Shown in pieces: positions 1-13,840 of a stretch of DNA of 13,840 nt. Within the stretch, counting starts at the first letter, position 1, and every line of letters starts with the position of its first letter. A model generated the notes under the pieces. That model was not told where the DNA came from and made no database searches. It worked only from the letters and a program-made list of their open reading frames with translations. Position numbers and translations under genes: made by a program. Origin of the DNA: a virus; IMG/VR virus record IMGVR_UViG_3300045988_099202, positions 1 to 13,840 of that record, one strand, 5' to 3'.

Positions 1-246
1 GGGTATTCTGGTAATAAATTTACAATTGTCATTCCCCACAATCATGGCTTGTTACCTCTGTCAGCCGCTCATCAATCACATATAAGCATCATTCAATGTA
101 TAACGTCTGTTATATAACGCATTTCCAACTCAACCAAGAGTAGAAAAAATTTCTCCTCAAACTCAACTAACAGTATCTTCACAACATCGCCTGAATGTGC
201 TATCATATAAATGTAAAGAGGAAGGAAACCTCACAAACCAGAAGGG
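1..246. repeat. Left inverted terminal repeat (ITR-L)
   Basis: Checked base by base. Positions 1-199 are the exact reverse complement of 13642-13840. Identity continues to 246/13595 with two mismatches (left C200 and C204; the right copy has T at 13641 and 13637 read on the minus strand). The sequence begins GGGTATTCTGG. Confidence 0.97.
178..206 (+). promoter_or_regulatory. ITR-borne inward-facing early promoter (left copy)
   Basis: TTCACA (178-183), 17-nt spacer, TATCAT (201-206), with TG at 198-199 giving an extended -10 (TGcTATCAT). It is followed by the GAAGGGG SD (241-247) and ATG 252. Confidence 0.6.
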
Positions 247-251
247 GAATT

Positions 252-467
252 ATGATGACTGTGTATCTCGAACGCCGTGCTATTAACCAGCTGAACCGCG
301 ATAGCATCTACGACACTGCCCGCTATTTTATGGAGGAAGATTCTGTGGTCCGGCTCCGTCGTGAATACCTTGACACCACGGTTGCTTTATCGAATAAAAG
401 CAGTAGCAATCCGAACGGATGGGAACAGGTCGAAATCCGTGTAAAGGGGGCGAAGAAGAATGTCTGA
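252..467 (+). CDS. Hypothetical early protein (71 aa)
   Basis: ATG 252 lies 4 nt after the GAAGGGG SD at the ITR edge. The track ORF start at 195 lies inside the promoter. The stop overlaps the next start (ATGTCTGA). No recognisable motifs. Confidence 0.65.
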   Translation: MMTVYLERRAINQLNRDSIYDTARYFMEEDSVVRLRREYLDTTVALSNKSSSNPNGWEQVEIRVKGAKKNV

Positions 468-651
468 TTTCCGATTTCTGGCAGTCCAGCTTCTTCGGGC
501 GAAATCCTTAACAGAGATTTGCAACTTGACAAATCGAAATTATAAGGGCTACACGCTCGATGAACGTGAATGCCTGCTGATGCTTGCAAAGGCGGTAACT
601 CGAGAGATTATCGCAACGAGACAAGCCGAAAGGAAAGAACAGAATGTGTGA
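460..651 (+). CDS. Hypothetical early protein (63 aa), weakly helix-turn-helix-like
   Basis: ATG 460 is preceded by AAGGGGG (443-449) and overlaps the upstream gene by 8 nt. The segment KSLTEICNLTNRN is vaguely HTH-like. The function is not supported beyond that. Confidence 0.6.
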   Translation: MSDFRFLAVQLLRAKSLTEICNLTNRNYKGYTLDERECLLMLAKAVTREIIATRQAERKEQNV

Positions 652-706
652 GTTACTGGCGGGTGTGCTTGCTATATTATTAGTATGTTGGGGGTTGCAA
701 CAATGA
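644..706 (+). CDS. Hydrophobic micro-ORF, 20 aa (MCELLAGVLAILLVCWGLQQ), paralog of 13281-13337
   Basis: Not in the supplied ORF track; translated by hand. ATG 644 overlaps the upstream stop (ATGTGTGA), with the AGGAAAG SD at 631-637. Its TGA (704-706) overlaps the next ATG (703) as ATGA. A paralogous peptide sits in the other arm in the same context. Confidence 0.5.
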   Translation: MCELLAGVLAILLVCWGLQQ

Positions 707-912
707 TGAAACGAGTGAAATTAACCGGCAAGCAATTGGACGAATTATATAATAGAGGTTACACGTTCACGGCAAAAAGCTATTACTGGCAGTGTTATGG
801 CGGGAATTTAGCGAACCGGATTAGCAAAGCTGAGTATTTGAGCAGGGGCATTGCTGAGCCGCTCCGCGGAGTCGAACAAGTCCGAATCTACAAGAGGGAG
901 GAAGACAGATGA
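703..912 (+). CDS. Hypothetical early protein (69 aa)
   Basis: ATG 703 is preceded by GGGGG (690-694), in an ATGA overlap with the micro-ORF stop. The track start at 685 has no SD. The stop overlaps the next gene (ATGA at 909-912). Confidence 0.65.
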   Translation: MMKRVKLTGKQLDELYNRGYTFTAKSYYWQCYGGNLANRISKAEYLSRGIAEPLRGVEQVRIYKREEDR

Positions 913-1157
913 CTGCTAATTATGTGCTTATTCGGTACGATGCTAATGGAAGAGAAATCGAAAGGAACGACGAAAGAGGTGTCAAAAGGTTTGAATTTTA
1001 TTCGCTCACGTTCGCAATGAGGTCGATGGAAATTGCTACAAACATTTCTAACGGCACGCAGTGCGCAAAGCTCTATCGTCGCCGCCGTGCCGGTGGGTAT
1101 CGCTGGGTTGCAACTCGTTTTCGTGGGGGCGCGCATCTAACTGCATGGGGTGAATAA
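909..1157 (+). CDS. Hypothetical early protein (82 aa), basic C-terminal half
   Basis: ATG 909 is preceded by GGGAGGAAG. The Arg-rich stretch LYRRRRAGGYRWVATRFRGG suggests nucleic-acid binding, but this is unproven. The gene ends at the bidirectional terminator. Confidence 0.65.
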   Translation: MTANYVLIRYDANGREIERNDERGVKRFEFYSLTFAMRSMEIATNISNGTQCAKLYRRRRAGGYRWVATRFRGGAHLTAWGE

Positions 1158-1182
1158 AAGGGAGGGCAATGCCCTCCCTTTT
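1156..1182. terminator. Bidirectional rho-independent terminator between the convergent left early operon and the late operon
   Basis: AAAA-GGGAGGGC-AAT-GCCCTCCC-TTTT: a perfect 8-bp GC-rich stem (1160-1167 / 1171-1178) with a 3-nt loop, flanked by an A-run and a T-run. It lies between stop codons at 1155-1157 (+) and 1187-1189 (-). Confidence 0.88.
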
Positions 1183-1186
1183 ATTG

Positions 1187-2641
1187 TTACACACCAACCG
1201 CGATCCAGTCTACGGCGAACTGCTCATGCGTCGTTGTACCGGAAAGCCTGATTTTTGCCGAACTTGTAGTTTTAGCAAAAATCAGCTGACTGCGTGTTAC
1301 ACTATCTTGAATCGCCCCACTGTTTGCATAAGTTGCGACCACGGTCGGAATTTCGGTAAATCCCGCCGACTGATAATCAATAATGGTGTCTTGGTCTTGG
1401 TATGCGAGAACACTGCCTCTTGCAATTTTTGGCATATTCTGGAATTTGGCAATAGCTGTTTCCAACTCTGACAAACGGGAATTGATAGAAGCCTTGTCTG
1501 TGGGGTAGTCCGAAGTACCATTGATAGCGGAACGATTATTCCAGCTCCAATTATATGCAGGGTTGATTCTTAACGCCATTGGAACATTTTCCGACCAAAT
1601 ACCGATTGTATCCCAGAGGGTGTTATATTTCGATTCTGCAGGTCTCGTGCCGATTTTTTCCAGTGCAGAAGAAGCAGTAGAAGCAGCTGTTGTCGCGTTT
1701 GCCTTGGCAATAGCGGCATTATTGTCTGCCGTTTCTGCCTTGGTATATGCATCTTGCACGGCCGCCTCAACGTTACCCAATTCCGTTGCGAGCTGCCCAG
1801 TTTTTTCATCTACATATGATATCGATGCAAACTCTTCCCCGCCAGAACTGCCCGCCACAACTTCAAAAGTAAAAACGCGGACTACCATATTAAATGTTGT
1901 CGATTCTCCGGGGCAGTCTGCTACAACTACAAAATTATTATATTTATCTGTGGTTGTGCTTTTAGGAGGCTTAACAATCAAAAATGCGTTATTGCTATCT
2001 CCAGCTGTATGCGCAACAGATGATTCGCGTTCGCAGATCGCGAAATCAAACGGCGCAATTACTTTGGAGGGGGTGAATTCCTTCCCTCTTGCGGTTCCCG
2101 GGGCTATAGCAACTTGATATTCGCCATTAAGTTTTACAAGCGAACCGGGTTTCAGCGCCGCCTCGATCGTATTTAGGCGCGCCTGAATTGTGCCTTTAGT
2201 AAGATCATACGCGCCATCAGTTCCCGCGATAGAACGTTGATTTTCTTTGCCCACCGTCTGAACTTGAAGCAACTTACTGCCGATTGCCTGTGTAGCATTG
2301 TATTCGCCGATTGTGCTCCAAATGCTGCCGAAATTAGGAACAGAAGGTTTTACGCCAATATTTTTTTCAGTTTCCAACATTCGCCCATTCAGACCGCTAA
2401 TACTTGTCGTGTGCGCTGTAATCTGATTTTGGAGTTGTTTGTCTGCGGTTGTTCGCGCGGAACGTTCGCCGCTGATTTTTTCGTCAAGCGCAGCATCCTG
2501 TTCGTCCACATATTCTTTGCTTACATTGCCGCTCTTTTCCAGCGTATCAACTCTTCCATCAAGTTCTTTGATTGAATTATAAGCCCAATCAAGATTCTGT
2601 TCGTGGAAATTCGTAAACGGGAATTGTTCCCAAATACCCAT
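1187..2641 (-). CDS. Tail fiber / receptor-binding appendage protein (484 aa)
   Basis: ATG 2641 lies 9 nt after AGGAGGT (2657-2651); the track start at 2671 is a TTG without an SD. It is the last gene of the structural module, at the gp12 position of phi29. The N-terminus WEQFPFTNFHEQNLDWAYNSIKEL is followed by coiled-coil-like heptads and beta-rich C-terminal domains. Confidence 0.7.
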   Translation of the reverse strand: MGIWEQFPFTNFHEQNLDWAYNSIKELDGRVDTLEKSGNVSKEYVDEQDAALDEKISGERSARTTADKQLQNQITAHTTSISGLNGRMLETEKNIGVKPSVPNFGSIWSTIGEYNATQAIGSKLLQVQTVGKENQRSIAGTDGAYDLTKGTIQARLNTIEAALKPGSLVKLNGEYQVAIAPGTARGKEFTPSKVIAPFDFAICERESSVAHTAGDSNNAFLIVKPPKSTTTDKYNNFVVVADCPGESTTFNMVVRVFTFEVVAGSSGGEEFASISYVDEKTGQLATELGNVEAAVQDAYTKAETADNNAAIAKANATTAASTASSALEKIGTRPAESKYNTLWDTIGIWSENVPMALRINPAYNWSWNNRSAINGTSDYPTDKASINSRLSELETAIAKFQNMPKIARGSVLAYQDQDTIIDYQSAGFTEIPTVVATYANSGAIQDSVTRSQLIFAKTTSSAKIRLSGTTTHEQFAVDWIAVGV

Positions 2642-2658
2642 ATATTTTACACCTCCTG

Positions 2659-3231
2659 TTAATATACCCAAATTAAAAACCGCTTCTTAAAATCCAGAAT
2701 AACAGCATCATAGAAGTTGAACATTGCAACACGCCGTTCACTTTCCAGCATTTCTTGCGTAGTGGTTACACCGATGTTACCGTGCGCCCGCCCTGTTCGA
2801 GTTCCTGCGCTTGTGCCTGTCCCGGCACTATCGCTTGTATCCGCGCTTGTGCTTGCGCTGGTGCTTGCGCTATTGTCAGCCGGTTTTTGTAAATCGTTGT
2901 AACCGTAAACTTGTTCTTTTGTTGAGCCACTGGAAGTGTTGTTTGCGGAATTCGTATAGCGTGAAGTGTTTGTGGTGCTGTCCTCCCATTCTTCCATTCT
3001 GTCATAATTTTCTATTGGATTATATTCCGCCGTTAGTGTTTCGGCAAAGTGTTGCCAAGTATATTGCGAAATTTTTGACCATACCCGAATTAGCGATTTA
3101 AGTAAAGGCGGCGACGAATAAAGAACAGGCAATTCTCCGCACTGCATCAATAGCGTGTCGACGAAATCTTGCACCGATATATTAGAAGGAAATTCCACGC
3201 CGTCAAAGATGGAAGGATCGAAATTATACAT
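2659..3231 (-). CDS. Putative lower collar / head-tail adaptor protein (190 aa)
   Basis: ATG 3231 overlaps the portal stop (ATGTATAA). It sits directly after the portal, as phi29 gp11 does. It has an EYNPIENYD motif and a Ser/Thr/Ala/Gly low-complexity stretch (nt 2791-2880). It is shorter than gp11, so the call rests mostly on position. Confidence 0.5.
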   Translation of the reverse strand: MYNFDPSIFDGVEFPSNISVQDFVDTLLMQCGELPVLYSSPPLLKSLIRVWSKISQYTWQHFAETLTAEYNPIENYDRMEEWEDSTTNTSRYTNSANNTSSGSTKEQVYGYNDLQKPADNSASTSASTSADTSDSAGTGTSAGTRTGRAHGNIGVTTTQEMLESERRVAMFNFYDAVILDFKKRFLIWVY

Positions 3232-4150
3232 TGTCGCCAACATCACGCTCAATCTTATTACCTCCATTTGTGTTATGCTCAATCGGATAACGCCGCTCAC
3301 AAGTGATTCTCACACCGAACGCATTCCGAACGTTGCGGATGCAATCTTGAATGGTGTCGAACCACTGCGCAACGATTGCATCTGTTTCAACGTCGTTCCG
3401 TTCCGCTTCGGCTGTAATCAGCCGTTCTTTTTTGTCGGTGTTACAATTCGGAATCCCAACACGTGTATCAAATTCTGCTTCAATTTGCCTCATGTTGGAA
3501 AGTATTCTGTCCGCGATATAGTTTTGCCCTACATTTTGTGCGAATGGCGCCCACGAGGGGGAACCATCATCGTTAAAAAGGGCTTTATCCACCCATACAG
3601 CTAATTCGCCAGATGTTACCCTATCCATCAATTCTTTGCCAGTTTGTGCGGCATTTTTAGAACTGCACGCGAACACATAGGAAAGTTTAGAATTCATAAT
3701 GTTCATTGCAAGCGATTCAACACATGTTGCAAGCAAGTCCGCGTAATAATTAACAATGTCTAACGCGCCATGATAATCGCGTTGCAACCGGAAAAGAACG
3801 CAATCCTTATCAATTTGCAAGCGCATCGGTGGCAAAAGGGGATTTGAAATCATCACGGTTGTAGGCTGATAGAAAACATTGTATCCATACAATGCGCCCG
3901 CCTGCGGAATTACACCGTAACGCTTGCTGTTAAAAATCGCCACGCTTCCCCATGCGTACAAGCAGCCGAGAAAATATGTATCGCTCCAACCTTCGGGAAA
4001 GCTCCATTTGAATTGGCTTGTTAGTTTCTGGAATAAATAGCGCTGATAATATTGGAAAAGCGCTGTGTTTTTTGTGTGGCAGGTAGAAGGGGAAATGCTC
4101 GATTCGTAGGCATTTATGCGGTTGTAATCAAAGGGCGGATTGTTAGCCAT
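3224..4150 (-). CDS. Portal (upper collar / connector) protein, phi29 gp10-like (308 aa)
   Basis: ATG 4150 follows GAAGGTGA and overlaps the upstream stop (ATGGCTAA). The size matches gp10 (309 aa). The segment VGIPNCNTDKKERLITAEAERNDVE resembles the gp10 [24 protein letters not shown] region as I recall it. Confidence 0.8.
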   Translation of the reverse strand: MANNPPFDYNRINAYESSISPSTCHTKNTALFQYYQRYLFQKLTSQFKWSFPEGWSDTYFLGCLYAWGSVAIFNSKRYGVIPQAGALYGYNVFYQPTTVMISNPLLPPMRLQIDKDCVLFRLQRDYHGALDIVNYYADLLATCVESLAMNIMNSKLSYVFACSSKNAAQTGKELMDRVTSGELAVWVDKALFNDDGSPSWAPFAQNVGQNYIADRILSNMRQIEAEFDTRVGIPNCNTDKKERLITAEAERNDVETDAIVAQWFDTIQDCIRNVRNAFGVRITCERRYPIEHNTNGGNKIERDVGDNV

Positions 4151-5672
4151 TAGATTCACCTTCTTCAATGAAAAATCCAGATGATAAATATTGCAACAGC
4201 AAAGCGATTTCTGGCTGCGAAGCAAGAATCACATCAATATCGGGGTGCTGAATTGTGGTAAACCCTGTAAGCGTTGAAAGTTTTAGCTTCTTACAACATG
4301 GCGTTCCCAAATCTTCATTATCAGAATTTGCCACATGAGCAAACCTCCAAAAGATGTGCGGTTGCACATTATAGCTTGATAAATTGCCGTTGTGTCCCTG
4401 CACACTTAAAACGCCATTAGCGGCATGTGCCGCCGTGCCGATTCCCGCAAACGTTGTTTCGCCTGAACCAATACCGGCAAGCGCTCCCTTGAAAGTGTTA
4501 GTTTGCGTCATCCCAACTAGCGCTCCTGCTCCCGCGCCTAATATCGCAAGCGCTCCGCTTCCGCCAGTGCCGAGCGCTCCAGCATTCGCGCCGGCTGCCG
4601 CTGAACCAATAACGTTTGTAACGTCAGAGATTGCGCCGCCTATCCAACTCGTTTGCGCAAGCTGTATATCTACGCCAATTTGGCATTCTGCATAATACAA
4701 GAGATTATCACCGGATGATATAGTTATACTCCCAATTCCCGATACACAATCAACCCTAATTCCGATTCCAATAGATTCCTTTTGTAGTTTTGTTGGGTCT
4801 AATTGTATTACCCCAAACGGCGGATAATATAGGTAGTATGTAGAATATGGCGCGTATGCAAGCCATTTTCCACGCCCAATTTGAGGATGAACGCCAATAT
4901 TATTTACAGTTATTCCCTTCGTGATAACGCCATCAGCAGCAAGCAATGATGCAGTTCCGCCTGTAAAATCCCATCCACAAATTGTTATGGATGAAACAAC
5001 GCCCGACGTTGGCGGTTTTTCTGGAAACCATCGGCACGAAACTATATATTGAAAAGGATTTATAATCGCACGTTGCAATTCCGCCGAAATTTCACTGTCC
5101 GCGATTCCCATGTAAGAAAAATCTGTCAAAAGGGCATGACGCAATGAAGCGAACTGTGCATTAGACATCACATAATATGCAATACCACCTACTGAATTTG
5201 TGGCGTTGTTTACGATACCCAGAACATAATAGCCAGATGTAAGAGTTGGTAACCCCCATCCTGTAACATCCGCCCCCCCGCTTGTAATTTTAGAAGTCAC
5301 AGGGTAAAGGCTATCAACTATTGATAAATCGCCAGCGCTTGCAGAACGCAAAATATACTGTGTAGATTCTTTAAGAGTTTCCCAGTAAGTAGCAAGAACA
5401 TCGCATGAAAGTGTATAAATCACACGGTTTCGGTCGAACATCATGTCGGCGACAAAATAATAACGATGGAAATCTGGAATGTATGCGTAATTGTAAGCTG
5501 CCGGGGAAAGTTGATGATCCGGAAAAATTAGCGCAACTTGCGGCGCAAGAACGCTTGTTAAATCTTTGAGCGTGCATTCCGTCAAAAAAGATAGCTGCCC
5601 CTGTTCATTTTTGGTAGTTGGGCGCTTCGTTGAATTAATACGTTTACGAAACGCATACATTCGTATTTGCAT
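4143..5672 (-). CDS. Tail knob / distal tail tube protein, phi29 gp9-like (509 aa)
   Basis: ATG 5672 follows GGAGGTGA. It sits immediately upstream of the portal, as gp9 does. YYFVADMMF...CDVLATYW resembles gp9 WFYAFV...IDVLQTW. A long Gly/Ala-rich hydrophobic segment (aa 344-420) parallels the membrane-active loop of gp9. Confidence 0.65.
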   Translation of the reverse strand: MQIRMYAFRKRINSTKRPTTKNEQGQLSFLTECTLKDLTSVLAPQVALIFPDHQLSPAAYNYAYIPDFHRYYFVADMMFDRNRVIYTLSCDVLATYWETLKESTQYILRSASAGDLSIVDSLYPVTSKITSGGADVTGWGLPTLTSGYYVLGIVNNATNSVGGIAYYVMSNAQFASLRHALLTDFSYMGIADSEISAELQRAIINPFQYIVSCRWFPEKPPTSGVVSSITICGWDFTGGTASLLAADGVITKGITVNNIGVHPQIGRGKWLAYAPYSTYYLYYPPFGVIQLDPTKLQKESIGIGIRVDCVSGIGSITISSGDNLLYYAECQIGVDIQLAQTSWIGGAISDVTNVIGSAAAGANAGALGTGGSGALAILGAGAGALVGMTQTNTFKGALAGIGSGETTFAGIGTAAHAANGVLSVQGHNGNLSSYNVQPHIFWRFAHVANSDNEDLGTPCCKKLKLSTLTGFTTIQHPDIDVILASQPEIALLLQYLSSGFFIEEGESNG

Positions 5673-5678
5673 TTTGTA

Positions 5679-6422
5679 TCACCTCCATTTATTAGCCGCT
5701 TTGCAAATAAACCAGATAGGCAAGCTATTCAGATTGATTTTTTGTAATTTATTGTACCAGTAATTCGCCCACTGAATACGATATTTACTTGTTGCTTCCC
5801 AGTCCGTTATTGCAGGGCGTTCATAGCAGAGACAGAAACTTTTTGTCAACTGCTCAACATCTGTGCTATCGGAAAAGTAAAAATCTTGGAAATTGGGGTA
5901 GATTGTGCCGCCCTCCCACTGATAATTATGCTCCACCTCGTACATAATGCGCGCAATCTGAATGCTGCCGTTGTACCAACAATCAAGCCCAGCATATGCC
6001 CCATTTGTTCCAAATATTTCTAGAGCCCAATCTATATATTTATCTGCTCCTGTCCACTGAACAAGCCCAAAACCGTATTTCTTTTCGGTGTTCTGCTTGT
6101 AATTATTTGGGTCAGGGCTCGGGGCGTGCCCGCCCTGCCATAGGGCGGGATTAAGTGTAGATTCCCGGCACATATTCCCGAGCATTGCTGATATTTGGGG
6201 GACTTTCCATCCGTTTTTATACAGCCCAGTTGCAATCAATACCCCGTTTGTTTCGCTCGCTGTCTCGTGATCTTGATAGTCAAAATATGGATCATCGTAT
6301 ATACTATAATACCACTCCTGCGGCAACCGAAACGGCTTGTACCAATGGGGATAACGTGTTTCTGTGCTATCCACAGCAGGGACTATGTTACTACCTGGTA
6401 TCCTCTGTCTATCTCCCGCCAT
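5679..6422 (-). CDS. Virion-associated peptidoglycan hydrolase (phage tail lysozyme-type domain, gp13 analog) (247 aa)
   Basis: ATG 6422 lies 6 nt after AGGAGG; the track start at 6464 lacks an SD. The motifs MLGNMCRESTLNP and GFGLVQWTG match the G-N-x3-ES / G-x-x-QW signature of the phage tail lysozyme family. Confidence 0.6.
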   Translation of the reverse strand: MAGDRQRIPGSNIVPAVDSTETRYPHWYKPFRLPQEWYYSIYDDPYFDYQDHETASETNGVLIATGLYKNGWKVPQISAMLGNMCRESTLNPALWQGGHAPSPDPNNYKQNTEKKYGFGLVQWTGADKYIDWALEIFGTNGAYAGLDCWYNGSIQIARIMYEVEHNYQWEGGTIYPNFQDFYFSDSTDVEQLTKSFCLCYERPAITDWEATSKYRIQWANYWYNKLQKINLNSLPIWFICKAANKWR

Positions 6423-6495
6423 GTTGCACCTCCTGTATTTTCTGGTAAAGTTATTTACCAACACATTTGGAAAATCGCACAGAATCGTCTCAAAC

Positions 6496-6571
6496 GTAAT
6501 AGCCCTGTATTGCTATGTTATTAACTTGGGCGCCTTATAGGGCCTGTTTTGTGCGAATACAGGGCTATTAC
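6496..6571 (-). other. Long perfect inverted repeat (16-bp stem, 44-nt spacer) just downstream of the capsid gene; possible RNA stabiliser, partial terminator or processing site
   Basis: GTAATAGCCCTGTATT (6496-6511) pairs perfectly with AATACAGGGCTATTAC (6556-6571). It lies in the 156-bp gap between the capsid stop (6579) and the next start (6422). On the minus strand the stem is followed only by GUUUGAG, so it is not a canonical intrinsic terminator. Confidence 0.55.
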
Positions 6572-6578
6572 TATTAAG

Positions 6579-7754
6579 TTAATCCATCAGAATAACAATA
6601 CCCTTTTCGGTAAAGTCAATGGCGTGTCGCTCGTTGTACTTCCAGAAAATGTTGTAATATTCGCCCTTCGCGTTCGGAGGCGTCACCCTCTGCCGCGTTA
6701 GAATCGGGCTGTACCCGAAAGCGTCACGGTCACAGATAATACCAAGTACGTTGCCTTGCTTTACGTCAGCCGTCGCCGTTGCAATAGTGCCATCAGCGGC
6801 GAGATACTGGGGCTTTACAACATTGATTTTCTGAGGGTCTGTCATAATTTGCCAGTAATTCACATATTCAACATCGCCCGCCATACGCAAGAAATTATCG
6901 TGGAACGTATCCGCAAGCGCCATCATGTTAGTTTGATGCATAAACATCGAATTAAGATAAACACGCTGTGCGGACTTAGGGCTGTGCTGGAGGAATACGC
7001 CATCGGCGCTATTGGTCTGGTACAAGCTGGAATATTCTGTCAGCATATCAGACAGATTAGCAAGGCGAGAGAACACCCACTGCGTAAACGCTTTATAGTT
7101 GGCGGGTTGCATAACGGTTGTCGCAGTCATGTCAAGCCCTGTAACGGTGTTGTACTCCGTCAGCAGATGAATAACATCGGCGTTCTGTGCAATCTTGCCA
7201 GCGGCAAACCCAGCTACGGTTGCGCGCGCGGTTTCTTCGTGCGTCTTTTCGATTTTGTTATTCATATTCGTCAAAACCATCGAAATAAATGCACCGAAAT
7301 CTTCTGCCGAATTAAACGCCGTGTTTAACTGCGTTTCAAAAATCGTTTTTTCGTATTCGTAGCTTTGCTGCCCGTAGAAGTTAAACTGTGCAACCTTCGG
7401 CTTGTGAATCGTGTACTGGTCTACGCTCTGACCGTCGGTCAAATCACAGTAAGGGTTATCGGTCAGGTCGCCCGGGTCGTCAATCGTCTTAATTTTCCTC
7501 ACCCAGTTTCCCCACTGGTCGCCGGGAATCCGCATACCCTCAAACTTCGCTTTGTATGGGCGGCTGGAAAAAATTGTTCGCGAAAGCATCTGCGAAATTG
7601 CATTCATTACAGGGTCAGCCCCCGTTTTCAACGCCTTCTGTCCGAGCGTCAACAACTGCTTAGTGTCAAGCGCGGCTGTATCCTGCCCGGTTGCATCTTT
7701 AAGCACTGCTTTCAGTAGAGTGCTAATCTTATCAATTGTCAAAGTGTTAGCCAT
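6579..7754 (-). CDS. Major capsid protein (391 aa)
   Basis: ATG 7754 lies 7 nt after GGAGGTG. It sits directly downstream of the scaffold gene, as in the phi29 gp7-gp8 order. Its size is typical of small-podovirus HK97-fold capsid proteins, and it is followed by a strong hairpin. The assignment rests on synteny and size; no diagnostic motif was recognised. Confidence 0.75.
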   Translation of the reverse strand: MANTLTIDKISTLLKAVLKDATGQDTAALDTKQLLTLGQKALKTGADPVMNAISQMLSRTIFSSRPYKAKFEGMRIPGDQWGNWVRKIKTIDDPGDLTDNPYCDLTDGQSVDQYTIHKPKVAQFNFYGQQSYEYEKTIFETQLNTAFNSAEDFGAFISMVLTNMNNKIEKTHEETARATVAGFAAGKIAQNADVIHLLTEYNTVTGLDMTATTVMQPANYKAFTQWVFSRLANLSDMLTEYSSLYQTNSADGVFLQHSPKSAQRVYLNSMFMHQTNMMALADTFHDNFLRMAGDVEYVNYWQIMTDPQKINVVKPQYLAADGTIATATADVKQGNVLGIICDRDAFGYSPILTRQRVTPPNAKGEYYNIFWKYNERHAIDFTEKGIVILMD

Positions 7755-7768
7755 TTACGGCACCTCCA

Positions 7769-8101
7769 TCAGTTCGGGCGGATAATTTCCGACAAAACAT
7801 CCTCTGCAGTCAACGTCTTGCTATTGTCAACCTGTGCACTCTGCAAATTGCCCTTCTGCACAATGCCAGTAAGATTTGCAATTTGCTGGAAAACCTTGTT
7901 GAACTGCTCCTGCGTATTATCCGGCGCCGGTGCTGGTGCCGGTGCCGGTGCTGGTGCCGGTGCCGGTGCTGGCGCCGGTGCCGGTGCCGGTGCTGGTGCC
8001 GGTGCCGGTGCTGGCGCGGGTGCATCAATCTGCATCAGCTTTCCAATCTGTTCAGCGGTGAAGCCAGCTTTTGCCAGCGTCAAAATGTCGGATACATTCA
8101 T
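7769..8101 (-). CDS. Putative scaffolding protein with central (Ala-Pro)17 linker (110 aa)
   Basis: ATG 8101 overlaps the endolysin stop (TAATG), with a GGAGG 9 nt upstream. It is small, predicted helical at both ends, and sits immediately upstream of the capsid gene, like phi29 gp7 (98 aa). Confidence 0.55.
7922..8023 (-). repeat. In-frame 102-bp tandem repeat (6-bp unit GCN-CCN, 18-bp higher order) encoding 17 consecutive Ala-Pro dipeptides
   Basis: Counted codon by codon: 34 alternating Ala (GCA/GCG) and Pro (CCG/CCA/CCC) codons between two Asp codons (8026-8024 and 7921-7919). Confidence 0.95.
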
Positions 8102-8604
8102 TATTTGTTGCCTCCATATTTATTTACAAGTGTGACAAGTTCGCCGTATAGGTTAGAATATAGTTCGTTCGCATCCTGCACAGGAGTGCTGACAACCTCA
8201 GACGCATAGTATAGGCAATCGGCCTTCGCGTGGTGCGTCCACCGCCTCCGATTAGTAATTTTATCCATCTGAACGCCTCCCGTCGTAGAATGAATTACTT
8301 CACCGTTGCCGATGTAAATTCCAACATGAGCGGCATTCACACCATCGGTATAGCGCTTTGGTTCTTTGCCATCATGTTTGATAGTAAATACCCATTCGCC
8401 TACATCGATGTTATCAAAATTGTCAGATTTGTCATGGACTGCGCCGCGCCACATATCATTCGAGCCGCGCCAGTTCTTATTGATATTGGCATATTTTCTC
8501 AAACAGTGTTCGACAAACGCCTGACAATCAAGTGTGGCGTACGGGATACCGATTAGATTATTTTTATCTGCCCTGATTTTCCCCGCCCATTCTACAGCAA
8601 TCAA
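8101..8604 (-). CDS. Endolysin, NlpC/P60-family cysteine peptidase (167 aa)
   Basis: The catalytic-type motifs [11 protein letters not shown] (Cys) and [16 protein letters not shown] (His) are typical of NlpC/P60. The TTG start at 8604 overlaps the holin stop (TTGA). No obvious cell-wall-binding domain. Confidence 0.75.
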
Positions 8605-8795
8605 TTCCCATCACCGCCCAACCTATCAATGAGGTGCTGCATCACAATCGTATTATTATTGATTGCATCCTTTAATTCCGCCGTTTCTTCCCTGTGCTGC
8701 TCACGCTCCCTATTCCAAAAATAGAAAAGTGCGCAAGTACAAGCAATCGGAAACCCTACGTTTGTAATGAGCGTAATAATGTCGGAAACTTCCAT
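8601..8795 (-). CDS. Holin, BhlA/UviB-like (64 aa from Met47 of the track ORF)
   Basis: A single TM (VSDIITLITNVGFPIACTCALFYFW) is followed by the charged helix NREREQHREETAELKD, as in BhlA-type holins. GGGAGGG lies just upstream of ATG 8795. It sits immediately upstream of, and is coupled to, the endolysin gene. An alternative start is Met43 (8807). Confidence 0.65.
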   Translation of the reverse strand: MEVSDIITLITNVGFPIACTCALFYFWNREREQHREETAELKDAINNNTIVMQHLIDRLGGDGN

Positions 8796-8811
8796 ACACC
8801 CTCCCATCTCC

Positions 8812-8900
8812 CGGAAAACAAAATGGCAATAGGGGTCGGGGCATGCGACTATGCCATGCTCACCCTTCCGGGGTTGTCGTTCGAGCTTCCCTATTGCCAT
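8812..8900 (-). terminator. Structured leader: 12-bp closing stem around a 54-nt GC-rich insert, followed by a U-tract (attenuator/terminator-like, or a small RNA 3' end)
   Basis: On the minus-strand RNA, AUGGCAAUAGGG (8900-8889) pairs perfectly with CCCUAUUGCCAU (8834-8823). It is followed by UUUGUUUUCC (8822-8813). Internal helices are possible, for example GCAUG/CAUGC and ACCC/GGGU. Confidence 0.5.
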
Positions 8901-8904
8901 AATC

Positions 8905-8933
8905 AATGTATCATAATTTTTAAATTTTGTCAA
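8905..8933 (-). promoter_or_regulatory. Near-consensus sigma-A/sigma-70 promoter upstream of the lysis and structural genes
   Basis: TTGACA (8933-8928, perfect -35), 17-nt spacer containing TG at 8913-8912 (extended -10, TGaTACATT), -10 TACATT (8910-8905). It starts 3 nt after the ATPase stop. The predicted TSS near 8899-8897 coincides with the 5' arm of the leader hairpin. Confidence 0.6.
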
Positions 8934-8936
8934 GAC

Positions 8937-9956: not shown

Positions 9957-9965
9957 GCTCCCCTC

Positions 9966-9998
9966 CATAAAATAAAGGCAGGGTTCTTCGCCCTGCCT
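9966..9998 (-). terminator. Rho-independent terminator at the end of the right early (replication) operon
   Basis: On the minus-strand RNA: AGGCAGGG-CGAAGAA-CCCUGCCU (stem 9998-9991 / 9983-9976), followed by UUAUUUUAU. It starts 10 nt after the stop of the 116-aa gene. There is no T-run on the plus-strand side, so it is unidirectional. Confidence 0.8.
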
Positions 9999-10007
9999 CT
10001 GACAGCA

Positions 10008-10358
10008 TCAATCGAAAATCAATTCGCACGATGTGTAGTTGCGGTTGTTTTTGCTCCGAATCTGTGTAATCATAATCTTGAAGCCTACATCGTCCATACC
10101 CGCCGTGCCCAGATAATCAACAATGGCAAGAAGCCGTTCGCTGAACGCTCTCCCATTCGTGATATATGGCACGCCATCTATGATAATCCCGCAACGCGGC
10201 TTAAACTCGCCGTTACCATCAACTGTTTCAGTCACCGCCCAAGCGTCAACGCGAACTGTTTTCAACATCAACTCCGACATCGTATGCCCTTCGCGGGAAA
10301 GCGTCAGCTTGTACAGTTCCGCCGGGGAAATGCTCTGATTAGTCTTCGTGTTACTCAT
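10008..10358 (-). CDS. Early protein, putative phi29 p5-like single-stranded DNA-binding protein (116 aa)
   Basis: ATG 10358 lies 7 nt after AGGAGGG, directly downstream of the polymerase. Its size is close to p5 (124 aa). The pattern IIIDGVPYI...SERLLAIVDYL...FKIMITQIRSKNNRNYTSCEL loosely parallels p5 AADGSLYS...ASDLIDLV...FKVKVVQGTSSKGNVFFSLQL as I recall it. Confidence 0.4.
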   Translation of the reverse strand: MSNTKTNQSISPAELYKLTLSREGHTMSELMLKTVRVDAWAVTETVDGNGEFKPRCGIIIDGVPYITNGRAFSERLLAIVDYLGTAGMDDVGFKIMITQIRSKNNRNYTSCELIFD

Positions 10359-10389
10359 GAGAAAGCCCTCCTAAATATTTGTTCGGCGG

Positions 10390-12408: not shown

Positions 12409-12410
12409 TC

Positions 12411-13112
12411 CTAAATCTTCCCTTCTCTTTTTGCTTTTTCAAACATTGCGCGAACGGTCGAACCGCTCACAAATTCCCCGGCTTTAAGCCGTTCTTTATA
12501 TCGCGCCCGTGCTTTGTCGGCTTGACGCTCCCAATAGTTCCACCTCTTTAACAAGTCCTCCCAGTCCGATTTTGCAAATTTTCGCTTAACGCTGGTAGTT
12601 CCTTCCTGCGATACATCAAGAATATCTTGCAAAATATAATAGTATTGCGCTTCTTTATTCGCATCAGCGTAAACCGCGAAAAATTTTCGAAATTGCAGAA
12701 AGTCCTCATAGGTGAATGTTTCTTCAGTAAACCATCCACGATGTAAAAGTGTTTCATACTCGCGTTTCCACTGGTTTTGTTGTGTATCAAATAACTGTTG
12801 TGGTGTTTTTGTTCCGCTAACAACTTTCCACATGGCGCGAATCTGCCGGACGCCTTCATCCACCGTCCGCACGGTGGAGGGTTTATCCCAATAATGGCGC
12901 TCATACTGTTTAATGCTTTCGTACTCAATGCCCTTCTTCTTTGCCGCCTTAAAGCGCTTATCCATTAGGTCAATTAACGACTTCATCTCTTTTTTAACAT
13001 CTTTTAGCGTCAAACCGGCTTTAGGAATTTTTGTACCTACATATACAGCCTTTGGAAGGGGGCGATTTTCAAGTGCCGTACTTTGCGCGAATCGTTTATT
13101 CCATCGTGCCAT
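12411..13112 (-). CDS. Putative terminal protein (replication primer) (233 aa)
   Basis: It sits immediately upstream of the polymerase and nearly abuts it, as in phi29 gene 3-gene 2. The size is similar to phi29 TP (266 aa). It is highly charged and basic, and starts MARWNKR (phi29 TP starts MARSPR). A Ser/Thr cluster (VSGSTV) near the C-terminus is a candidate priming site. No rigorous homology was established. Confidence 0.55.
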   Translation of the reverse strand: MARWNKRFAQSTALENRPLPKAVYVGTKIPKAGLTLKDVKKEMKSLIDLMDKRFKAAKKKGIEYESIKQYERHYWDKPSTVRTVDEGVRQIRAMWKVVSGTKTPQQLFDTQQNQWKREYETLLHRGWFTEETFTYEDFLQFRKFFAVYADANKEAQYYYILQDILDVSQEGTTSVKRKFAKSDWEDLLKRWNYWERQADKARARYKERLKAGEFVSGSTVRAMFEKAKREGKI

Positions 13113-13284
13113 TCTTTATAAGCCCCCTTCTCAACAACTCATTATAGACGGTTTTAATACAGAGCCGAGCTGTTTTTGATAGATTGTCCATTCTCGTAAT
13201 GTCGCAAATTTCTTTTAGTCGCTTCAAATCTTCGGGATACATGGATAGCGTTATCACTTTATATTGGCGCTTTCTATTGTTCAT
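13096..13284 (-). CDS. Putative ribbon-helix-helix (CopG/Arc-like) transcriptional regulator (62 aa)
   Basis: ATG 13284 is preceded by GGGGG and is in an ATGA overlap with the micro-ORF stop. YKVITLSMYPEDLKRLKEICDITRMDNLSKTARLCIKTVYNELL fits a beta-strand, helix, loop, helix RHH pattern. Its 3' end overlaps the TP start by 17 nt. Confidence 0.5.
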   Translation of the reverse strand: MNNRKRQYKVITLSMYPEDLKRLKEICDITRMDNLSKTARLCIKTVYNELLRRGLIKNGTME

Positions 13285-13337
13285 TGTTGCAACCCCCATG
13301 TAACAAGGATTATAAGCATGACTGCCGTTAGCAACAT
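13281..13337 (-). CDS. Hydrophobic micro-ORF, 18 aa (MLLTAVMLIILVTWGLQQ), paralog of 644-706
   Basis: Not in the supplied track; translated by hand. The GGAGG SD (13352-13348) lies 10 nt upstream of ATG 13337. Its TGA (13283-13281) overlaps the ATG of the RHH gene (ATGA). Confidence 0.5.
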   Translation of the reverse strand: MLLTAVMLIILVTWGLQQ

Positions 13338-13354
13338 TTGGTTTTCGCCTCCAG

Positions 13355-13585
13355 TTATTGTCTCCAAACGTAACGTGTTAAATTGCAATAACGGGCAAGC
13401 GGTTCAACTCGTTCGTAGCCAATAATTATGCCGCGGTCGATCTGAACCTTGAACGGAAAAACATTTACCTCCGAGCCGTCATAAAGACTTGCAATTCCGT
13501 AAATGATTCTGCCACCCTCAACATAGTAGCGGAAACCGTCATGGGTGACGTGCCAACCTTCGCGAGTGATAATTGATTTATTCAT
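13355..13585 (-). CDS. Hypothetical early protein (76 aa), first gene of the right early operon
   Basis: ATG 13585 lies 9 nt after the GAAGGG that ends the ITR; the track start at 13591 is a TTG. The composition is beta-rich, with no recognisable motifs. Confidence 0.65.
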   Translation of the reverse strand: MNKSIITREGWHVTHDGFRYYVEGGRIIYGIASLYDGSEVNVFPFKVQIDRGIIIGYERVEPLARYCNLTRYVWRQ

Positions 13586-13594
13586 GTGCAACTT

Positions 13595-13840
13595 CCCTTC
13601 TGGTTTGTGAGGTTTCCTTCCTCTTTACATTTATATAATAACACATTCAGGCGATGTTGTGAAGATACTGTTAGTTGAGTTTGAGGAGAAATTTTTTCTA
13701 CTCTTGGTTGAGTTGGAAATGCGTTATATAACAGACGTTATACATTGAATGATGCTTATATGTGATTGATGAGCGGCTGACAGAGGTAACAAGCCATGAT
13801 TGTGGGGAATGACAATTGTAAATTTATTACCAGAATACCC
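13595..13840. repeat. Right inverted terminal repeat (ITR-R)
   Basis: Reverse complement of 1-246 (244/246 identical). Similarity ends right after the shared GAAGGG ribosome-binding motif. Confidence 0.97.
13635..13663 (-). promoter_or_regulatory. ITR-borne inward-facing early promoter (right copy)
   Basis: Mirror copy on the minus strand: TTCACA (13663-13658), 17-nt spacer, extended -10 TGtTATTAT (13643-13635). The two ITR mismatches both fall in this element and bring the -10 closer to TATAAT than in the left copy. Confidence 0.6.

What the first reader, a model, noticed from the sequence alone, without database searches (positions are those of the whole stretch)
644..706. Paired paralogous hydrophobic micro-ORFs, one in each genome arm, both ending WGLQQ and both coupled to the next gene
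Hand translation reveals MCELLAGVLAILLVCWGLQQ (644-706, +) and MLLTAVMLIILVTWGLQQ (13281-13337, -). Neither is in the ORF track. Both have their own SD, and both end in an ATGA overlap with the downstream start codon. The left one also overlaps the upstream stop. Outside the identical 3' 18 nt, the DNA has diverged while the peptide is kept. Five aligned codon pairs are synonymous: TTA/TTG, CTG/CTA, GTG/GTC, TTA/CTT and GTA/GTT. That is the signature of selection on the peptide, not just on the DNA. The length and composition fit a single short transmembrane helix. phi29 uses small membrane proteins encoded at both genome ends (p1 and p16.7) to organise replication at the membrane, so these may be minimal analogs. 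Alternatively they are leader peptides controlling the downstream regulators.
Basis: seen in the sequence. Interest (0 to 1): 0.7.

Follow-up and report, generated by a model that had tools for sequence, protein, structure and literature searches.

The report
Tiny conserved hydrophobic phage peptide genes
Two unannotated 18- and 20-codon genes in a small human-gut phage, a relative of Bacillus phage phi29, are real and evolutionarily conserved; they encode very hydrophobic, probably membrane-embedded mini-peptides, and their last codons also form the ribosome-binding site of the next gene.

Summary
The window is a complete 13.84-kb phi29-like phage genome from human gut, with 251-nt inverted terminal repeats. 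It encodes MCELLAGVLAILLVCWGLQQ (644-706, +) and MLLTAVMLIILVTWGLQQ (13337-13281, -).

Relatives yielded 24 distinct full-length DNA versions: 13 of the 'MLL' type and 11 of the 'MCE' type. The frame, the start codon, an upstream Shine-Dalgarno and the hydrophobic peptide are kept. Synonymous sites are heavily substituted. pN/pS is 0.22 and 0.32 in the micro-ORF frame, against 0.55-2.6 in the other frames and 0.15 for the neighbouring 62-aa gene.

The shared 18-mer is not a conserved DNA site. It varies synonymously, and its palindrome is often broken. TGGGGG (Trp-Gly) lies 8 nt before the next gene's overlapping ATG/GTG, so it is that gene's Shine-Dalgarno.

At least four unrelated genes follow the micro-ORF in different genomes. 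This argues against a gene-specific leader peptide. The peptide has no soluble domain, so it is not a p1/p16.7 analogue.

Best reading: an early-expressed, autonomous single-helix membrane micropeptide of unknown target. It is present in every relative whose right arm was seen, and the left-arm copy is an accessory duplicate. It is a new small-gene family, not a new kind of system.

The parts
644..706 (+). Left micro-ORF ('MCE type'), 20 codons plus stop: MCELLAGVLAILLVCWGLQQ
   Evidence: Read. Ten further distinct full-length homologues were found, nearly always directly after an MSDFRF-family gene. pN/pS is 0.32 in this frame against 0.60 and 2.58 in the other frames.
13281..13337 (-). Right micro-ORF ('MLL type'), 18 codons plus stop: MLLTAVMLIILVTWGLQQ
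   Evidence: Read. Present in all 16 contigs of the close clade that cover this region, as 13 distinct DNA versions. pN/pS is 0.22 against 0.55 and 1.86 in the other frames.
689..706 (+). Shared 18-mer, left copy. It encodes W-G-L-Q-Q-stop and also holds the downstream gene's Shine-Dalgarno (TGGGGG 689-694), an 8-nt spacer and its ATG (703-705).
   Evidence: The Gly codon is GGG in 23 of 24 distinct versions, although GGG makes up only 23% of Gly codons in this genome.
13281..13298 (-). Shared 18-mer, right copy. Same dual role: Shine-Dalgarno at 13298-13293 and downstream ATG at 13284-13282.
   Evidence: Relatives change it to CTTGAA, TTACAG, CTGGAA, CTGGGG, TTGGGA and so on, keeping W-G-L-x-Q/K and the RTGA overlap.
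631..634 (+). Weak Shine-Dalgarno (AGGA) 9 nt before the left micro-ORF start. It lies inside the upstream gene's codons.
   Evidence: Relatives carry GGAAGGAG at the same place.
13348..13352 (-). Shine-Dalgarno (GGAGG) 10 nt before the right micro-ORF start
   Evidence: A G-rich Shine-Dalgarno is kept in every relative although the intergenic spacer differs in length and sequence.
460..651 (+). Upstream 63-aa 'MSDFRF' gene. Its stop overlaps the micro-ORF start (ATGTGTGA, 644-651).
   Evidence: Family members ending ..(Q/K/N)(N/D)V (10 of 20 aligned sequences, the window's included) were followed by the micro-ORF wherever the flanking DNA was read. Those ending ..HDETGKTNA run straight into the next gene. 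The AlphaFold model is three helices at pLDDT 89, with no convincing fold match.
703..912 (+). Downstream gene of the left micro-ORF (69 aa, 'MKQ.RLT' family), start overlapping the micro-ORF stop
   Evidence: No family hit.
13096..13284 (-). Downstream 62-aa gene of the right micro-ORF, start overlapping the micro-ORF stop
   Evidence: pN/pS 0.15. The model shows two helices at pLDDT 65. A ribbon-helix-helix fold is suspected from the sequence pattern but not confirmed.
13355..13585 (-). Upstream 76-aa gene of the right arm
   Evidence: weak match to phrog_33937.
178..206 (+). Promoter-like site inside the left terminal repeat (TTCACA-17-TATCAT with TG), positioned to drive the left early operon 252-1157
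   Evidence: The terminal repeat is 1-251. A terminator hairpin lies at 1153-1185 (I11).
13635..13663 (-). The same promoter-like site in the right terminal repeat (TTCACA-17-TATTAT with TG), positioned to drive the right arm

Best explanation
Both micro-ORFs are genuine translated genes of one small family. The consensus is (MCE/N)- or M-LL-x-A-[VIL]-[LM]-x-[VI]-[LI]-LV-x-WGL-x-Q, 16-20 aa. Each encodes a single very hydrophobic helix that most likely sits in the host cytoplasmic membrane.

They are expressed early, from the promoter-like sites in the terminal repeats, as internal cistrons of tightly packed operons. Each has its own Shine-Dalgarno. The left type can also be reached by termination-reinitiation from the upstream gene through the ATGTGTGA overlap.

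The last five codons are dual-purpose. UGG-GGG is the Shine-Dalgarno and CAAUGA/CAGUGA carries the start of whichever gene follows. This explains why the 3' 18 nt are the most conserved part, and why the two copies in this genome are identical.

The peptide itself, not the coupling, is what selection preserves. It acts in trans in the membrane on an unknown host or phage target, for example by modulating a membrane protein or the membrane barrier during takeover. The right-arm copy is present in every clade member where that region was seen. The left-arm copy is an accessory paralogue that travels with the MSDFRF gene and has been lost, shortened or deleted in many genomes.

Shown: existence, homology, purifying selection in this frame, conserved ribosome-binding sites, the overlap architecture, and independence from the identity of the downstream gene.

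Inferred: translation in vivo, membrane insertion, early timing, and action in trans.
For: 1. Frame-specific purifying selection.
- MLL type: pS 0.41, pN 0.09, ratio 0.22. The ratio is 1.86 in the downstream gene's frame, and the third frame is full of stops.
- MCE type: pS 0.65, pN 0.21, ratio 0.32, against 0.60 and 2.58.
- The adjacent bona fide 62-aa gene has a ratio of 0.15.
- Leucine positions use up to four codons across both leucine codon families (TTA/TTG and CTT/CTG) at one site. All core replacements stay within L/I/V/A/M/F/T/G/C.

2. A Shine-Dalgarno motif about 5-12 nt upstream is kept in every relative, even though the spacer changes in length and sequence.

3. The DNA block itself is not conserved. 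The palindrome GTTGCAAC is broken in L001, L017-L020, L127, L128, L131, L132, L135 and L136, while W-G-L-x-Q/K-stop is kept.

4. The downstream gene differs between genomes: the 62-aa gene, the MKQ.RLT family, the MRSIIEV 51-aa gene and the MMYSVAVYE 55-aa gene.

5. RTGA stop/start overlap is kept in 24 of 24 versions, and GGG follows Trp in 23 of 24, against a 23% genome-wide GGG share.

6. These are the most hydrophobic segments of the genome.

7. There is no RNA-structure signal (z-scores -0.68 to +1.59) and no Rfam match.

8. An unrelated 24-aa hydrophobic micro-ORF, also under constraint (ratio 0.32) and also abutting the next gene's Shine-Dalgarno, occupies the early arm of a distant clade. 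Tiny hydrophobic early peptides are therefore a recurrent feature of these phages.
Against: - There is no direct evidence of translation or membrane insertion.
- The hydrophobic run is only about 15-16 residues, which is short for a bilayer-spanning helix.
- There are no flanking charges to set the topology.
- The peptide is dispensable at the left position. Ten close genomes lack it. L130 has the core deleted. L137-139 carry a 16-aa shortened form.
- Relatives at 38-45% polymerase identity have no such ORF, so any function is lineage-specific.
- The dN/dS values are pairwise Nei-Gojobori sums over 36-51 nt from related sequences. They are not phylogeny-corrected.
- Hydrophobic-to-hydrophobic substitutions would also be tolerated by a leader rich in branched-chain-amino-acid codons.
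Confidence: 0.62

Rival explanations
1. Cis-acting leader or bridging ORF. On this reading the micro-ORF exists to deliver or gate ribosomes for the next gene. This could work by termination-reinitiation at AUGA, by a nascent-peptide arrest at ..WGLQQ-stop, or by ribosome pausing on the Leu/Ile/Val-rich codons as a read-out of branched-chain amino-acid supply. The peptide product itself would have no function.
For: - The RTGA overlap with the downstream start is invariant in 24 of 24 versions, and the downstream Shine-Dalgarno lies inside the micro-ORF.
- The left type is also chained to the upstream gene by ATGTGTGA/ATGTGTAA in 10 of 11 versions.
- At 16-20 residues the whole peptide would still be inside the ribosomal exit tunnel at termination (general knowledge).
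- Composition is 60-70% Leu/Ile/Val, as in ilv/leu attenuator leaders (my recollection).
- In L130 the peptide core is deleted but the GGGGG...ACAATGA initiation region is retained.
Against: - A pure coupling device needs no particular amino-acid sequence, yet the peptide is under purifying selection comparable to a real neighbouring gene.
- The family precedes at least four unrelated genes, so it is not the dedicated leader of one regulated gene.
- Close relatives express the same left-arm genes by direct overlap without it.
- There is no alternative-hairpin or terminator architecture and no above-background folding.
- Codon choice at the Leu/Ile/Val positions drifts freely.
- 4- and 8-nt overlaps are the norm for every gene junction in these operons, so the overlap is not special.
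Confidence: 0.17
2. Membrane-damaging mini-toxin. This is a special case of the membrane-peptide reading. The peptide would act like the 18-19-aa Ibs or the Fst/TisB type I toxins, or like a pinholin, depolarising the host membrane early. The effect could be to shut down host functions or to exclude superinfecting phage.
For: Size and composition resemble Ibs-class toxins (my recollection; that small hydrophobic type I toxins are membrane-bound is stated in PMC10730256). The peptide is strongly hydrophobic and sits in an early operon.
Against: - No sequence match to any toxin family in Pfam, NCBIfam or PHROGs, even at E up to 10.
- No convincing antisense promoter or structured 5' region sequestering the Shine-Dalgarno.
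- Constitutive early expression of a depolarising toxin, translated along with the replication genes, would be risky for the phage.
- A separate candidate lysis cassette exists: the NlpC/P60 gene at 8101-8604 next to a 110-aa hydrophobic protein at 8601-8933.
Confidence: 0.1
3. Minimal analogues of phi29 p1/p16.7. The peptides would tether terminal-protein-primed replication to the membrane, possibly together with the co-translated MSDFRF protein acting as a 'split' p16.7.
For: - The phage has a protein-primed DNA polymerase B and a putative terminal protein directly downstream of the right copy.
- In phi29, p1 and p16.7 are early membrane proteins that contact terminal protein (PMC4974454).
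- The MCE type is almost always co-encoded with, and overlaps, the three-helix MSDFRF protein.
Against: - The peptide has no soluble domain with which to bind DNA or terminal protein.
- There is no sequence similarity to any family.
- The MSDFRF protein has no detectable DNA-binding fold match.
- The MLL type is paired with a different upstream gene.
- Relatives at 38-45% polymerase identity lack the ORF altogether.
Confidence: 0.06
4. Not a gene. The conserved element would be a DNA or RNA site, either the 8-bp palindrome GTTGCAAC as an operator or simply the downstream ribosome-binding site, and the open frame upstream of it would be incidental.
For: - The 18-mer is the best-conserved part and contains a palindrome.
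- L130 keeps only this part.
- No gene caller has ever reported these peptides.
Against: - The palindrome is broken in most lineages, while the frame and peptide persist.
- The 36 nt upstream of the 18-mer show the same frame-specific excess of synonymous change: ratio 0.22 (MLL) and 0.31 (MCE) for that segment.
- The start codon and a dedicated Shine-Dalgarno are conserved in every full-length version and in the shortened L137-139 form.
- The other two frames contain stops or evolve at a ratio above 1.
Confidence: 0.03

Closest known systems
Small single-helix membrane proteins of bacteria and phages (e.g. KdpF, AcrZ, MgrB, SpoVM, and small-gene families catalogued in phage genomes)
   Same: Very short and dominated by one hydrophobic helix. 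Overlooked by annotation. Conserved only within a narrow lineage. Encoded inside operons with overlapping junctions. (The class is described in PMC10730256; the named examples are my recollection.)
   Different: At 16-20 aa these are shorter than almost all characterised examples (26-50 aa). There is no charged flank, the partner is unknown, and the 3' codons double as the next gene's ribosome-binding site.
Type I toxins of the Ibs / Fst / TisB kind
   Same: An 18-20-aa, almost purely hydrophobic peptide. Ibs toxins are 18-19 aa (my recollection).
   Different: No antisense RNA partner or structured leader was detected. No family match. The ORF is an internal cistron of a phage early operon, not a stand-alone locus.
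phi29 early membrane proteins p1 and p16.7
   Same: Early genes of a protein-primed phage, membrane-associated, encoded near the genome ends (PMC4974454).
   Different: p1 (about 85 aa) and p16.7 (about 130 aa) carry soluble oligomerisation or DNA/terminal-protein-binding parts (sizes are my recollection). The micro-ORFs have none. There is no homology.
Leader peptides and translationally coupled upstream ORFs (erm/cat leaders, ilv/leu attenuators, AUGA-coupled cistrons)
   Same: A short ORF whose stop overlaps the next start. The downstream Shine-Dalgarno lies inside it. It is rich in Leu/Ile/Val codons.
   Different: The amino-acid sequence is under purifying selection. There are no alternative RNA hairpins. 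It is associated with several unrelated downstream genes.
24-aa hydrophobic micro-ORF M[IL]LNANAMLCL.L.I.I.IY.... of a distant gut phi29-like clade (found here)
   Same: A tiny hydrophobic early-arm ORF with its own Shine-Dalgarno. pN/pS is 0.32. Its stop codon (TAG) is fused to the next gene's Shine-Dalgarno (TAGGAGG).
   Different: No sequence similarity and no WGL motif. It is the first gene of its arm. It is longer, so it has a canonical membrane-spanning length.

Membership tests
Protein-coding gene (small ORF under selection) | Open frame, start codon and ribosome-binding site conserved across relatives | tested here: met
   24 distinct full-length versions keep ATG, frame, stop and an upstream Shine-Dalgarno. 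There is one core deletion (L130) and one in-frame shortening (L137-139).
Protein-coding gene (small ORF under selection) | Excess of synonymous over non-synonymous change, specific to this frame | tested here: met
   pN/pS is 0.22 (MLL) and 0.32 (MCE), against 0.55-2.58 in the other frames. The neighbouring gene is 0.15. These are pairwise counts, not phylogeny-corrected.
Protein-coding gene (small ORF under selection) | Evidence of translation (Ribo-seq or mass spectrometry) | not testable with these tools
   No expression data are available. The peptides are absent from the 15-billion-protein collection.
Single-pass membrane micropeptide | Uninterrupted hydrophobic helix long enough to span or embed in a bilayer | tested here: inconclusive
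   The 15-16-residue apolar run has a Kyte-Doolittle mean of 2.35-2.46 over 16 residues, the highest in the genome. This is shorter than the usual 18-20 or more. No dedicated membrane-helix predictor was available.
Single-pass membrane micropeptide | Membrane localisation and a partner | not testable with these tools
   Needs fractionation, topology reporters or interaction assays.
phi29 p1 / p16.7 replication-organising membrane proteins | Soluble domain that binds terminal protein and/or DNA and self-associates | tested here: not met
   The peptides are 16-20 aa with at most 2-5 non-core residues. The properties of p1 and p16.7 come from PMC4974454.
phi29 p1 / p16.7 replication-organising membrane proteins | Sequence or profile similarity | tested here: not met
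   No Pfam, NCBIfam or PHROGs hit at E up to 10.
Type I toxin-antitoxin (Ibs/Fst/TisB-like) | Small hydrophobic toxin peptide | tested here: met
   Size and composition fit.
Type I toxin-antitoxin (Ibs/Fst/TisB-like) | Overlapping or adjacent antisense RNA gene, and a structured mRNA limiting translation | tested here: not met
   No strong antisense promoter facing either ORF. Folding is no better than shuffles. No Rfam hit.
Type I toxin-antitoxin (Ibs/Fst/TisB-like) | Membership of a described toxin family by sequence | tested here: not met
Regulatory leader peptide / attenuator | Short ORF immediately upstream of, and coupled to, the regulated gene | tested here: met
   RTGA overlap in 24 of 24 versions, with the downstream Shine-Dalgarno inside the ORF.
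Regulatory leader peptide / attenuator | Alternative RNA structures or a terminator controlled by ribosome position | tested here: not met
   z-scores from -0.68 to +1.59 for four homologous regions. One weak terminator-like match lies inside the left ORF (657-674, 3 G-C pairs); it was not followed up, and no such match lies at the right copy.
Regulatory leader peptide / attenuator | Constant association with one regulated gene or pathway | tested here: not met
   At least four unrelated downstream genes.
Holin / antiholin | Next to the endolysin, late expression, membrane helix or helices plus a charged C-terminal tail | tested here: not met
   The ORFs lie in the early arms. The candidate lysis genes are at 8101-8933. 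There is no charged tail.

The most novel reading that the evidence does not exclude
The peptide is an obligatory 'one copy per genome' factor. On this reading it is not just another small membrane protein. Two versions remain open. (a) It is the membrane half of a split anchoring system, acting with the co-translated three-helix MSDFRF protein or with terminal protein, that localises protein-primed replication. (b) It is a nascent-chain or branched-chain-amino-acid-sensing gate that sets how many ribosomes reinitiate on whatever early gene recombination places behind the portable TGGGGG-N8-ATG cassette. Either way a 16-20-aa ORF would be a modular control element of early gene expression or replication in a whole clade of gut phages.
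Probability: 0.12. Interest if true: 0.7.

Novelty: new member of a known kind. Interest (0 to 1): 0.45.

Why it matters
This shows that a 13.8-kb phage genome assumed to be fully read still hides two selected genes, of 18 and 20 codons, that no gene caller has reported. They are absent from a 15-billion-protein collection.

The family is abundant in human-gut assemblies. One adjacent-gene cluster alone is indexed in 45 blocks of the assembly collection. It is among the shortest phage genes with clear comparative evidence of purifying selection.

It also gives a clean example of dual coding, where Trp-Gly codons double as the next gene's Shine-Dalgarno. That cautions against reading extra conservation at ORF ends as DNA sites or as evidence of gene conversion.

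Functionally it points to tiny hydrophobic peptides as a recurrent early-gene feature of gut phi29-like phages, since an unrelated 24-aa family occupies the same niche in another clade. Such peptides are easy to synthesise and test for effects on host membranes. It does not, however, reveal a new kind of system.

Tried and rejected
1. N-terminal extension of the downstream genes from ATG 685 / 13299 (MLGVATM.. / MGVATM..). Some gene callers did this (P0002, P0007, P0013, P0021, P0024). Rejected because that frame evolves at pN/pS 1.9-2.6 and is stopped in L001 and in every MCE-type version.

2. Operator or palindrome GTTGCAAC. Rejected because it is broken in most lineages.

3. Gene conversion between arms to explain the identical 18-mer. 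This is unnecessary. TGGGGG-TTG-CAA-CAATGA is simply the family consensus under the combined peptide, Shine-Dalgarno and start-codon constraints, and in L018 the two copies differ at 4 of 18 positions.

4. RNA structure or a known RNA family. Nothing was found.

5. Family searches with the peptides in Pfam, NCBIfam and PHROGs at E up to 10. Nothing was found. The large homology search refuses queries under 40 aa. The exact-sequence look-up found none of eight variants.

6. Host or extra copies through the 18-mer in 596 Gb of genomes. The 21 hits were in unrelated metagenome-assembled genomes. About 17 are expected by chance (my calculation), so this is uninformative.

7. A 15-mer specific to the left type in IMG/VR. 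It gave 39 hits, of which only one (the L018 contig) is relevant.

8. Function of the neighbouring genes. Pfam/PHROGs, PDB profile search and AlphaFold plus Foldseek gave no assignment for the 62-aa or the MSDFRF protein. I suspected a ribbon-helix-helix fold for the 62-aa protein but it is unconfirmed.

9. Deeper conservation. Relatives at 38-45% polymerase identity (L021, L141-L144) have no comparable ORF.

10. A whole-peptide hydrophobicity shuffle test is only weakly discriminating. With mean Kyte-Doolittle of at least 1.7, 7% of shuffles gave two or more such ORFs. The case therefore rests on comparative evidence, not composition.
Full report
**What the window is**

The 13,840-nt window is a complete linear phage genome.
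- Its ends are 251-nt inverted terminal repeats, 98% identical (I1).
- It encodes a protein-primed-type DNA polymerase B (10390-12408, -), a gp16-like packaging ATPase (8937-9968, -), a phi29-type major capsid protein, a connector and a tail lysozyme.
- The same genome is present in a human-gut metagenome assembly (ERR912046, PRJEB9576).
- Each terminal repeat holds a promoter-like site with an extended -10 element: TTCACA-17-TG.TATCAT at 178-206 (+), and its mirror at 13663-13635 (-).
- A short operon (252-1157, closed by a perfect hairpin at 1153-1185) reads inward from the left. Everything else reads inward from the right.
- Both micro-ORFs are internal cistrons of these two end-proximal, presumably early, operons.

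**Check of the observation**

- Direct reading confirms MCELLAGVLAILLVCWGLQQ at 644-706 (+) and MLLTAVMLIILVTWGLQQ at 13337-13281 (-).
- The 18-mer TGGGGGTTGCAACAATGA occurs exactly twice. Allowing up to 3 mismatches, 0.02 matches are expected by chance.
- Both stops overlap the next start codon (ATGA). The left start overlaps the upstream stop (ATGTGTGA).
- GGAGG lies 10 nt before the right start, and a weaker AGGA lies 9 nt before the left start.
- The two peptides contain the most hydrophobic 16-residue stretches of any gene in the genome.

**Relatives: the right ('MLL') type**

- One GenBank record (MT839743, human faeces), IMG/VR contigs and two Logan assemblies share 80-90% DNA identity with the window's right arm and its structural genes.
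- All 16 contigs that cover the region carry the 18-codon ORF, in 13 distinct DNA versions.
- The peptide varies only conservatively: T/V/A at position 4, A/T/V at 5, I/V at 6 and 9, and Q/E/G then Q/K at the last two positions.
- Eleven of 17 third-codon positions vary, and three leucine positions also change at their first base. Leu2 and Leu16 each use TTG, TTA, CTT and CTG.
- Nei-Gojobori sums give pS 0.41, pN 0.09 and a ratio of 0.22 in the micro-ORF frame. The ratio is 1.86 in the downstream gene's frame, and the third frame is littered with stops.
- The adjacent 62-aa gene in the same genomes has a ratio of 0.15.
- The intergenic spacer in front of the ORF changes in length and sequence, but always keeps a G-rich Shine-Dalgarno 5-10 nt from the ATG.

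**Relatives: the left ('MCE') type**

- Most close relatives lack it. There the 'MSDFRF' gene (the homologue of 460-651) carries a longer C-terminus (..HDETGKTNA) and overlaps the 'MKQAKLT' gene (the homologue of 703-912) directly.
- A protein search with the MSDFRF protein found 23 clusters. Ten of the 20 aligned sequences, the window's own included, end in ..(Q/K/N)(N/D)V like the window's copy.
- Every such contig I fetched has the 20-codon ORF overlapping that stop. This gives 11 distinct full-length versions (window, L018, L131, L132, L135, L136, L140, L145, L147, L148, L149).
- Synonymous sites are close to saturation (pS 0.65) and pN is 0.21, a ratio of 0.32. The other frames give 0.60 and 2.58.
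- Variants such as MCNLLVALMLVLLVTWGLQQ match the MLL type at 13 of 18 positions. The two types are therefore one family, not a case of convergence.
- In a sister lineage (L131, L132, L135, L136, L140), the MSDFRF gene plus micro-ORF lies in the same arm and on the same strand as terminal protein and polymerase. No MLL copy precedes the 61-62-aa gene there.
- Two decayed forms exist. L130 has lost the hydrophobic core and keeps only ATG..GGGGGGTGAAACAATGA. L137-139 carry an in-frame shortened 16-aa form, MREMLLAVLVGWGLKQ.
- Both decayed forms are in genomes with the window's two-arm layout, where an MLL copy is expected. I could not see their right arms.

**What the 18-mer is**

- It is not a conserved DNA site. 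Relatives have CTTGAACAATGA, TTACAGCAATGA, CTGGAACAATGA, CTGGGGCAATGA, TTGGGAAAATGA, ATGCAACAATGA and so on. These break the GTTGCAAC palindrome but keep W-G-L/M-x-Q/K-stop.
- Three things are invariant: TGG, a following Gly codon that is GGG in 23 of 24 versions (GGG is 23% of Gly codons genome-wide), and a 4-nt RTGA overlap with the next start. The start is ATG in 21 versions and GTG in L010, L140 and L148.
- TGGGGG lies 8 nt before that start. G-runs serve as Shine-Dalgarno for other genes here, for example GGGGG 9 nt before the ATG at 460.
- The block is therefore dual-coded: it is the peptide's C-terminus and also the downstream gene's translation initiation region.
- TGGGGG-TTG-CAA-CAATGA is simply the family consensus. 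The perfect identity of the two copies in this genome needs no gene conversion. In L018, the only other genome seen with both copies, they differ at 4 of 18 positions.

**Autonomous gene or leader?**

The gene behind the micro-ORF varies between genomes:
- the 62-aa gene (right arm);
- the MKQ.RLT family (window, L135, L136, L140, L147, L148);
- a 51-aa MRSIIEV gene (L018, L137);
- a 55-aa MMYSVAVYE gene (L131, L132, L145, L149).

Other points bearing on the question:
- Overlapping junctions are the rule for all genes in these operons.
- Four homologous regions fold no better than shuffles. Rfam finds nothing.
- A leader that merely passes ribosomes on would not need a conserved hydrophobic sequence.

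I therefore favour a trans-acting peptide. The coupling architecture is real, however, and a cis role is not excluded. It could take the form of reinitiation, an arrest at the stop codon, or pausing on Leu/Ile/Val codons. I give this 0.17.

**Comparison with known systems**

- phi29 p1 and p16.7 are early membrane proteins that contact terminal protein (PMC4974454). They work through soluble parts that a 16-20-aa peptide does not have, so membership fails.
- Type I toxins of the Ibs class match in size and composition (my recollection). No antisense partner, structured leader or family match was found.
- The holin role is better filled by a 110-aa hydrophobic protein (8601-8933) next to an NlpC/P60 hydrolase (8101-8604).
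- The best-fitting category is the heterogeneous class of very small single-helix membrane proteins (reviewed for Gram-positives in PMC10730256). This would be an unusually short, phage-encoded, hitherto unannotated family within it.
- None of eight variants exists in the 15-billion-protein collection.

**Recurrence**

- A distant clade (polymerase about 34% identical) has an unrelated 24-aa ORF, M[IL]LNANAMLCL.L.I.I.IY...., in its early arm. It has its own Shine-Dalgarno and a pN/pS of 0.32. Its TAG stop is fused to the next gene's Shine-Dalgarno (TAGGAGG).
- Relatives at 38-45% polymerase identity show nothing comparable.
- Tiny hydrophobic early peptides are therefore recurrent in these phages but not universal.

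**Limits**

- There are no expression data, no membrane-helix predictor and no known host.
- The dN/dS values are pairwise sums over 36-51 nt from related sequences, not phylogeny-corrected.
- The neighbouring proteins remain unassigned.
- The 'at least one copy per genome' pattern is suggested by the data but not proven.

**Verdict**

Its two functional guesses are, respectively, not supported (p1/p16.7 analogue) and not favoured (leader peptide). The finding is a solid new small-gene family with a neat dual-coding feature. It is of moderate interest and is not a new kind of system.

Noticed in passing
window 1-251 and 13590-13840: The 251-nt inverted terminal repeats each contain a promoter-like site. 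Two of the few mismatches between the repeats fall at positions 200 and 204, in or next to the -10 element. The left reads TGcTATCAT and the right TGtTATTAT, so the two arms may be driven with different strengths.
   Followed up: partly
L032, L034, L038, L041, L044, L045, L048, L049, L059 (e.g. L032:212-286): A distant clade of gut phi29-like phages (polymerase about 34% identical) has an unrelated conserved 24-aa hydrophobic micro-ORF, M[IL]LNANAMLCL.L.I.I.IY...., near the genome end. pN/pS is 0.32, and its TAG stop forms part of the next gene's Shine-Dalgarno (TAGGAGG).
   Followed up: partly
L131, L132, L135, L136, L140 (first about 2 kb of each): In a sister lineage the whole set of genes that forms the window's left arm lies in the same arm and on the same strand as terminal protein and polymerase. 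These genes are MSDFRF, the micro-ORF, MKQ.RLT and the gene ending ..AWGE. The early block has therefore been moved to the opposite genome end, in inverted orientation, in one of the two lineages.
   Followed up: partly
L130:522-545 and L137:656-706: Natural decay of the left-type micro-ORF. One genome has deleted the hydrophobic core, fusing the old start in frame to the next gene. Another lineage carries an in-frame 4-codon shortening (MREMLLAVLVGWGLKQ).
   Followed up: partly
window 1-13840: No Rfam match to the phi29 prohead/packaging RNA, or to any other family at gathering threshold. The four sub-threshold hits (E up to 1) are weak matches to unrelated families. If this phage uses a packaging RNA, it is too divergent to be recognised.
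   Followed up: partly
window 6489-6578: A 23-nt inverted repeat (87% complementary, 44-nt loop) fills most of the 114-nt gap between the major capsid gene (6579-7754, -) and the tail lysozyme gene (5679-6464, -). It could be a strong terminator or processing hairpin, or a small RNA.
   Followed up: no
window 7905-8036: A tandem array of GGTGCC/GGTGCT units lies inside the 110-aa ORF 7769-8101 (-). It encodes a run of Ala-Pro repeats (..QIDAPAPAP..), a low-complexity linker in a small structural-region protein.
   Followed up: no
window 8101-8933: Candidate lysis cassette: an NlpC/P60-family hydrolase (8101-8604, -) preceded by a 110-aa protein with a hydrophobic segment (8601-8933, -). This is separate from the micro-ORFs.
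   Followed up: partly
window 250-900 compared with L002-L011, L018, L020: The left arm is a mosaic hot spot. First genes are swapped between relatives, extra 72-85-aa genes are inserted, and the micro-ORF is present or absent. The right arm and the structural genes stay 87-90% identical.
   Followed up: partly
window 12894-12968 (+): A 24-aa hydrophobic ORF (MALILFNAFVLNALLLCRLKALIH) lies antisense inside the putative terminal-protein gene. It ranks second for hydrophobicity among short ORFs. Its conservation was not examined, and it is probably incidental.
   Followed up: no
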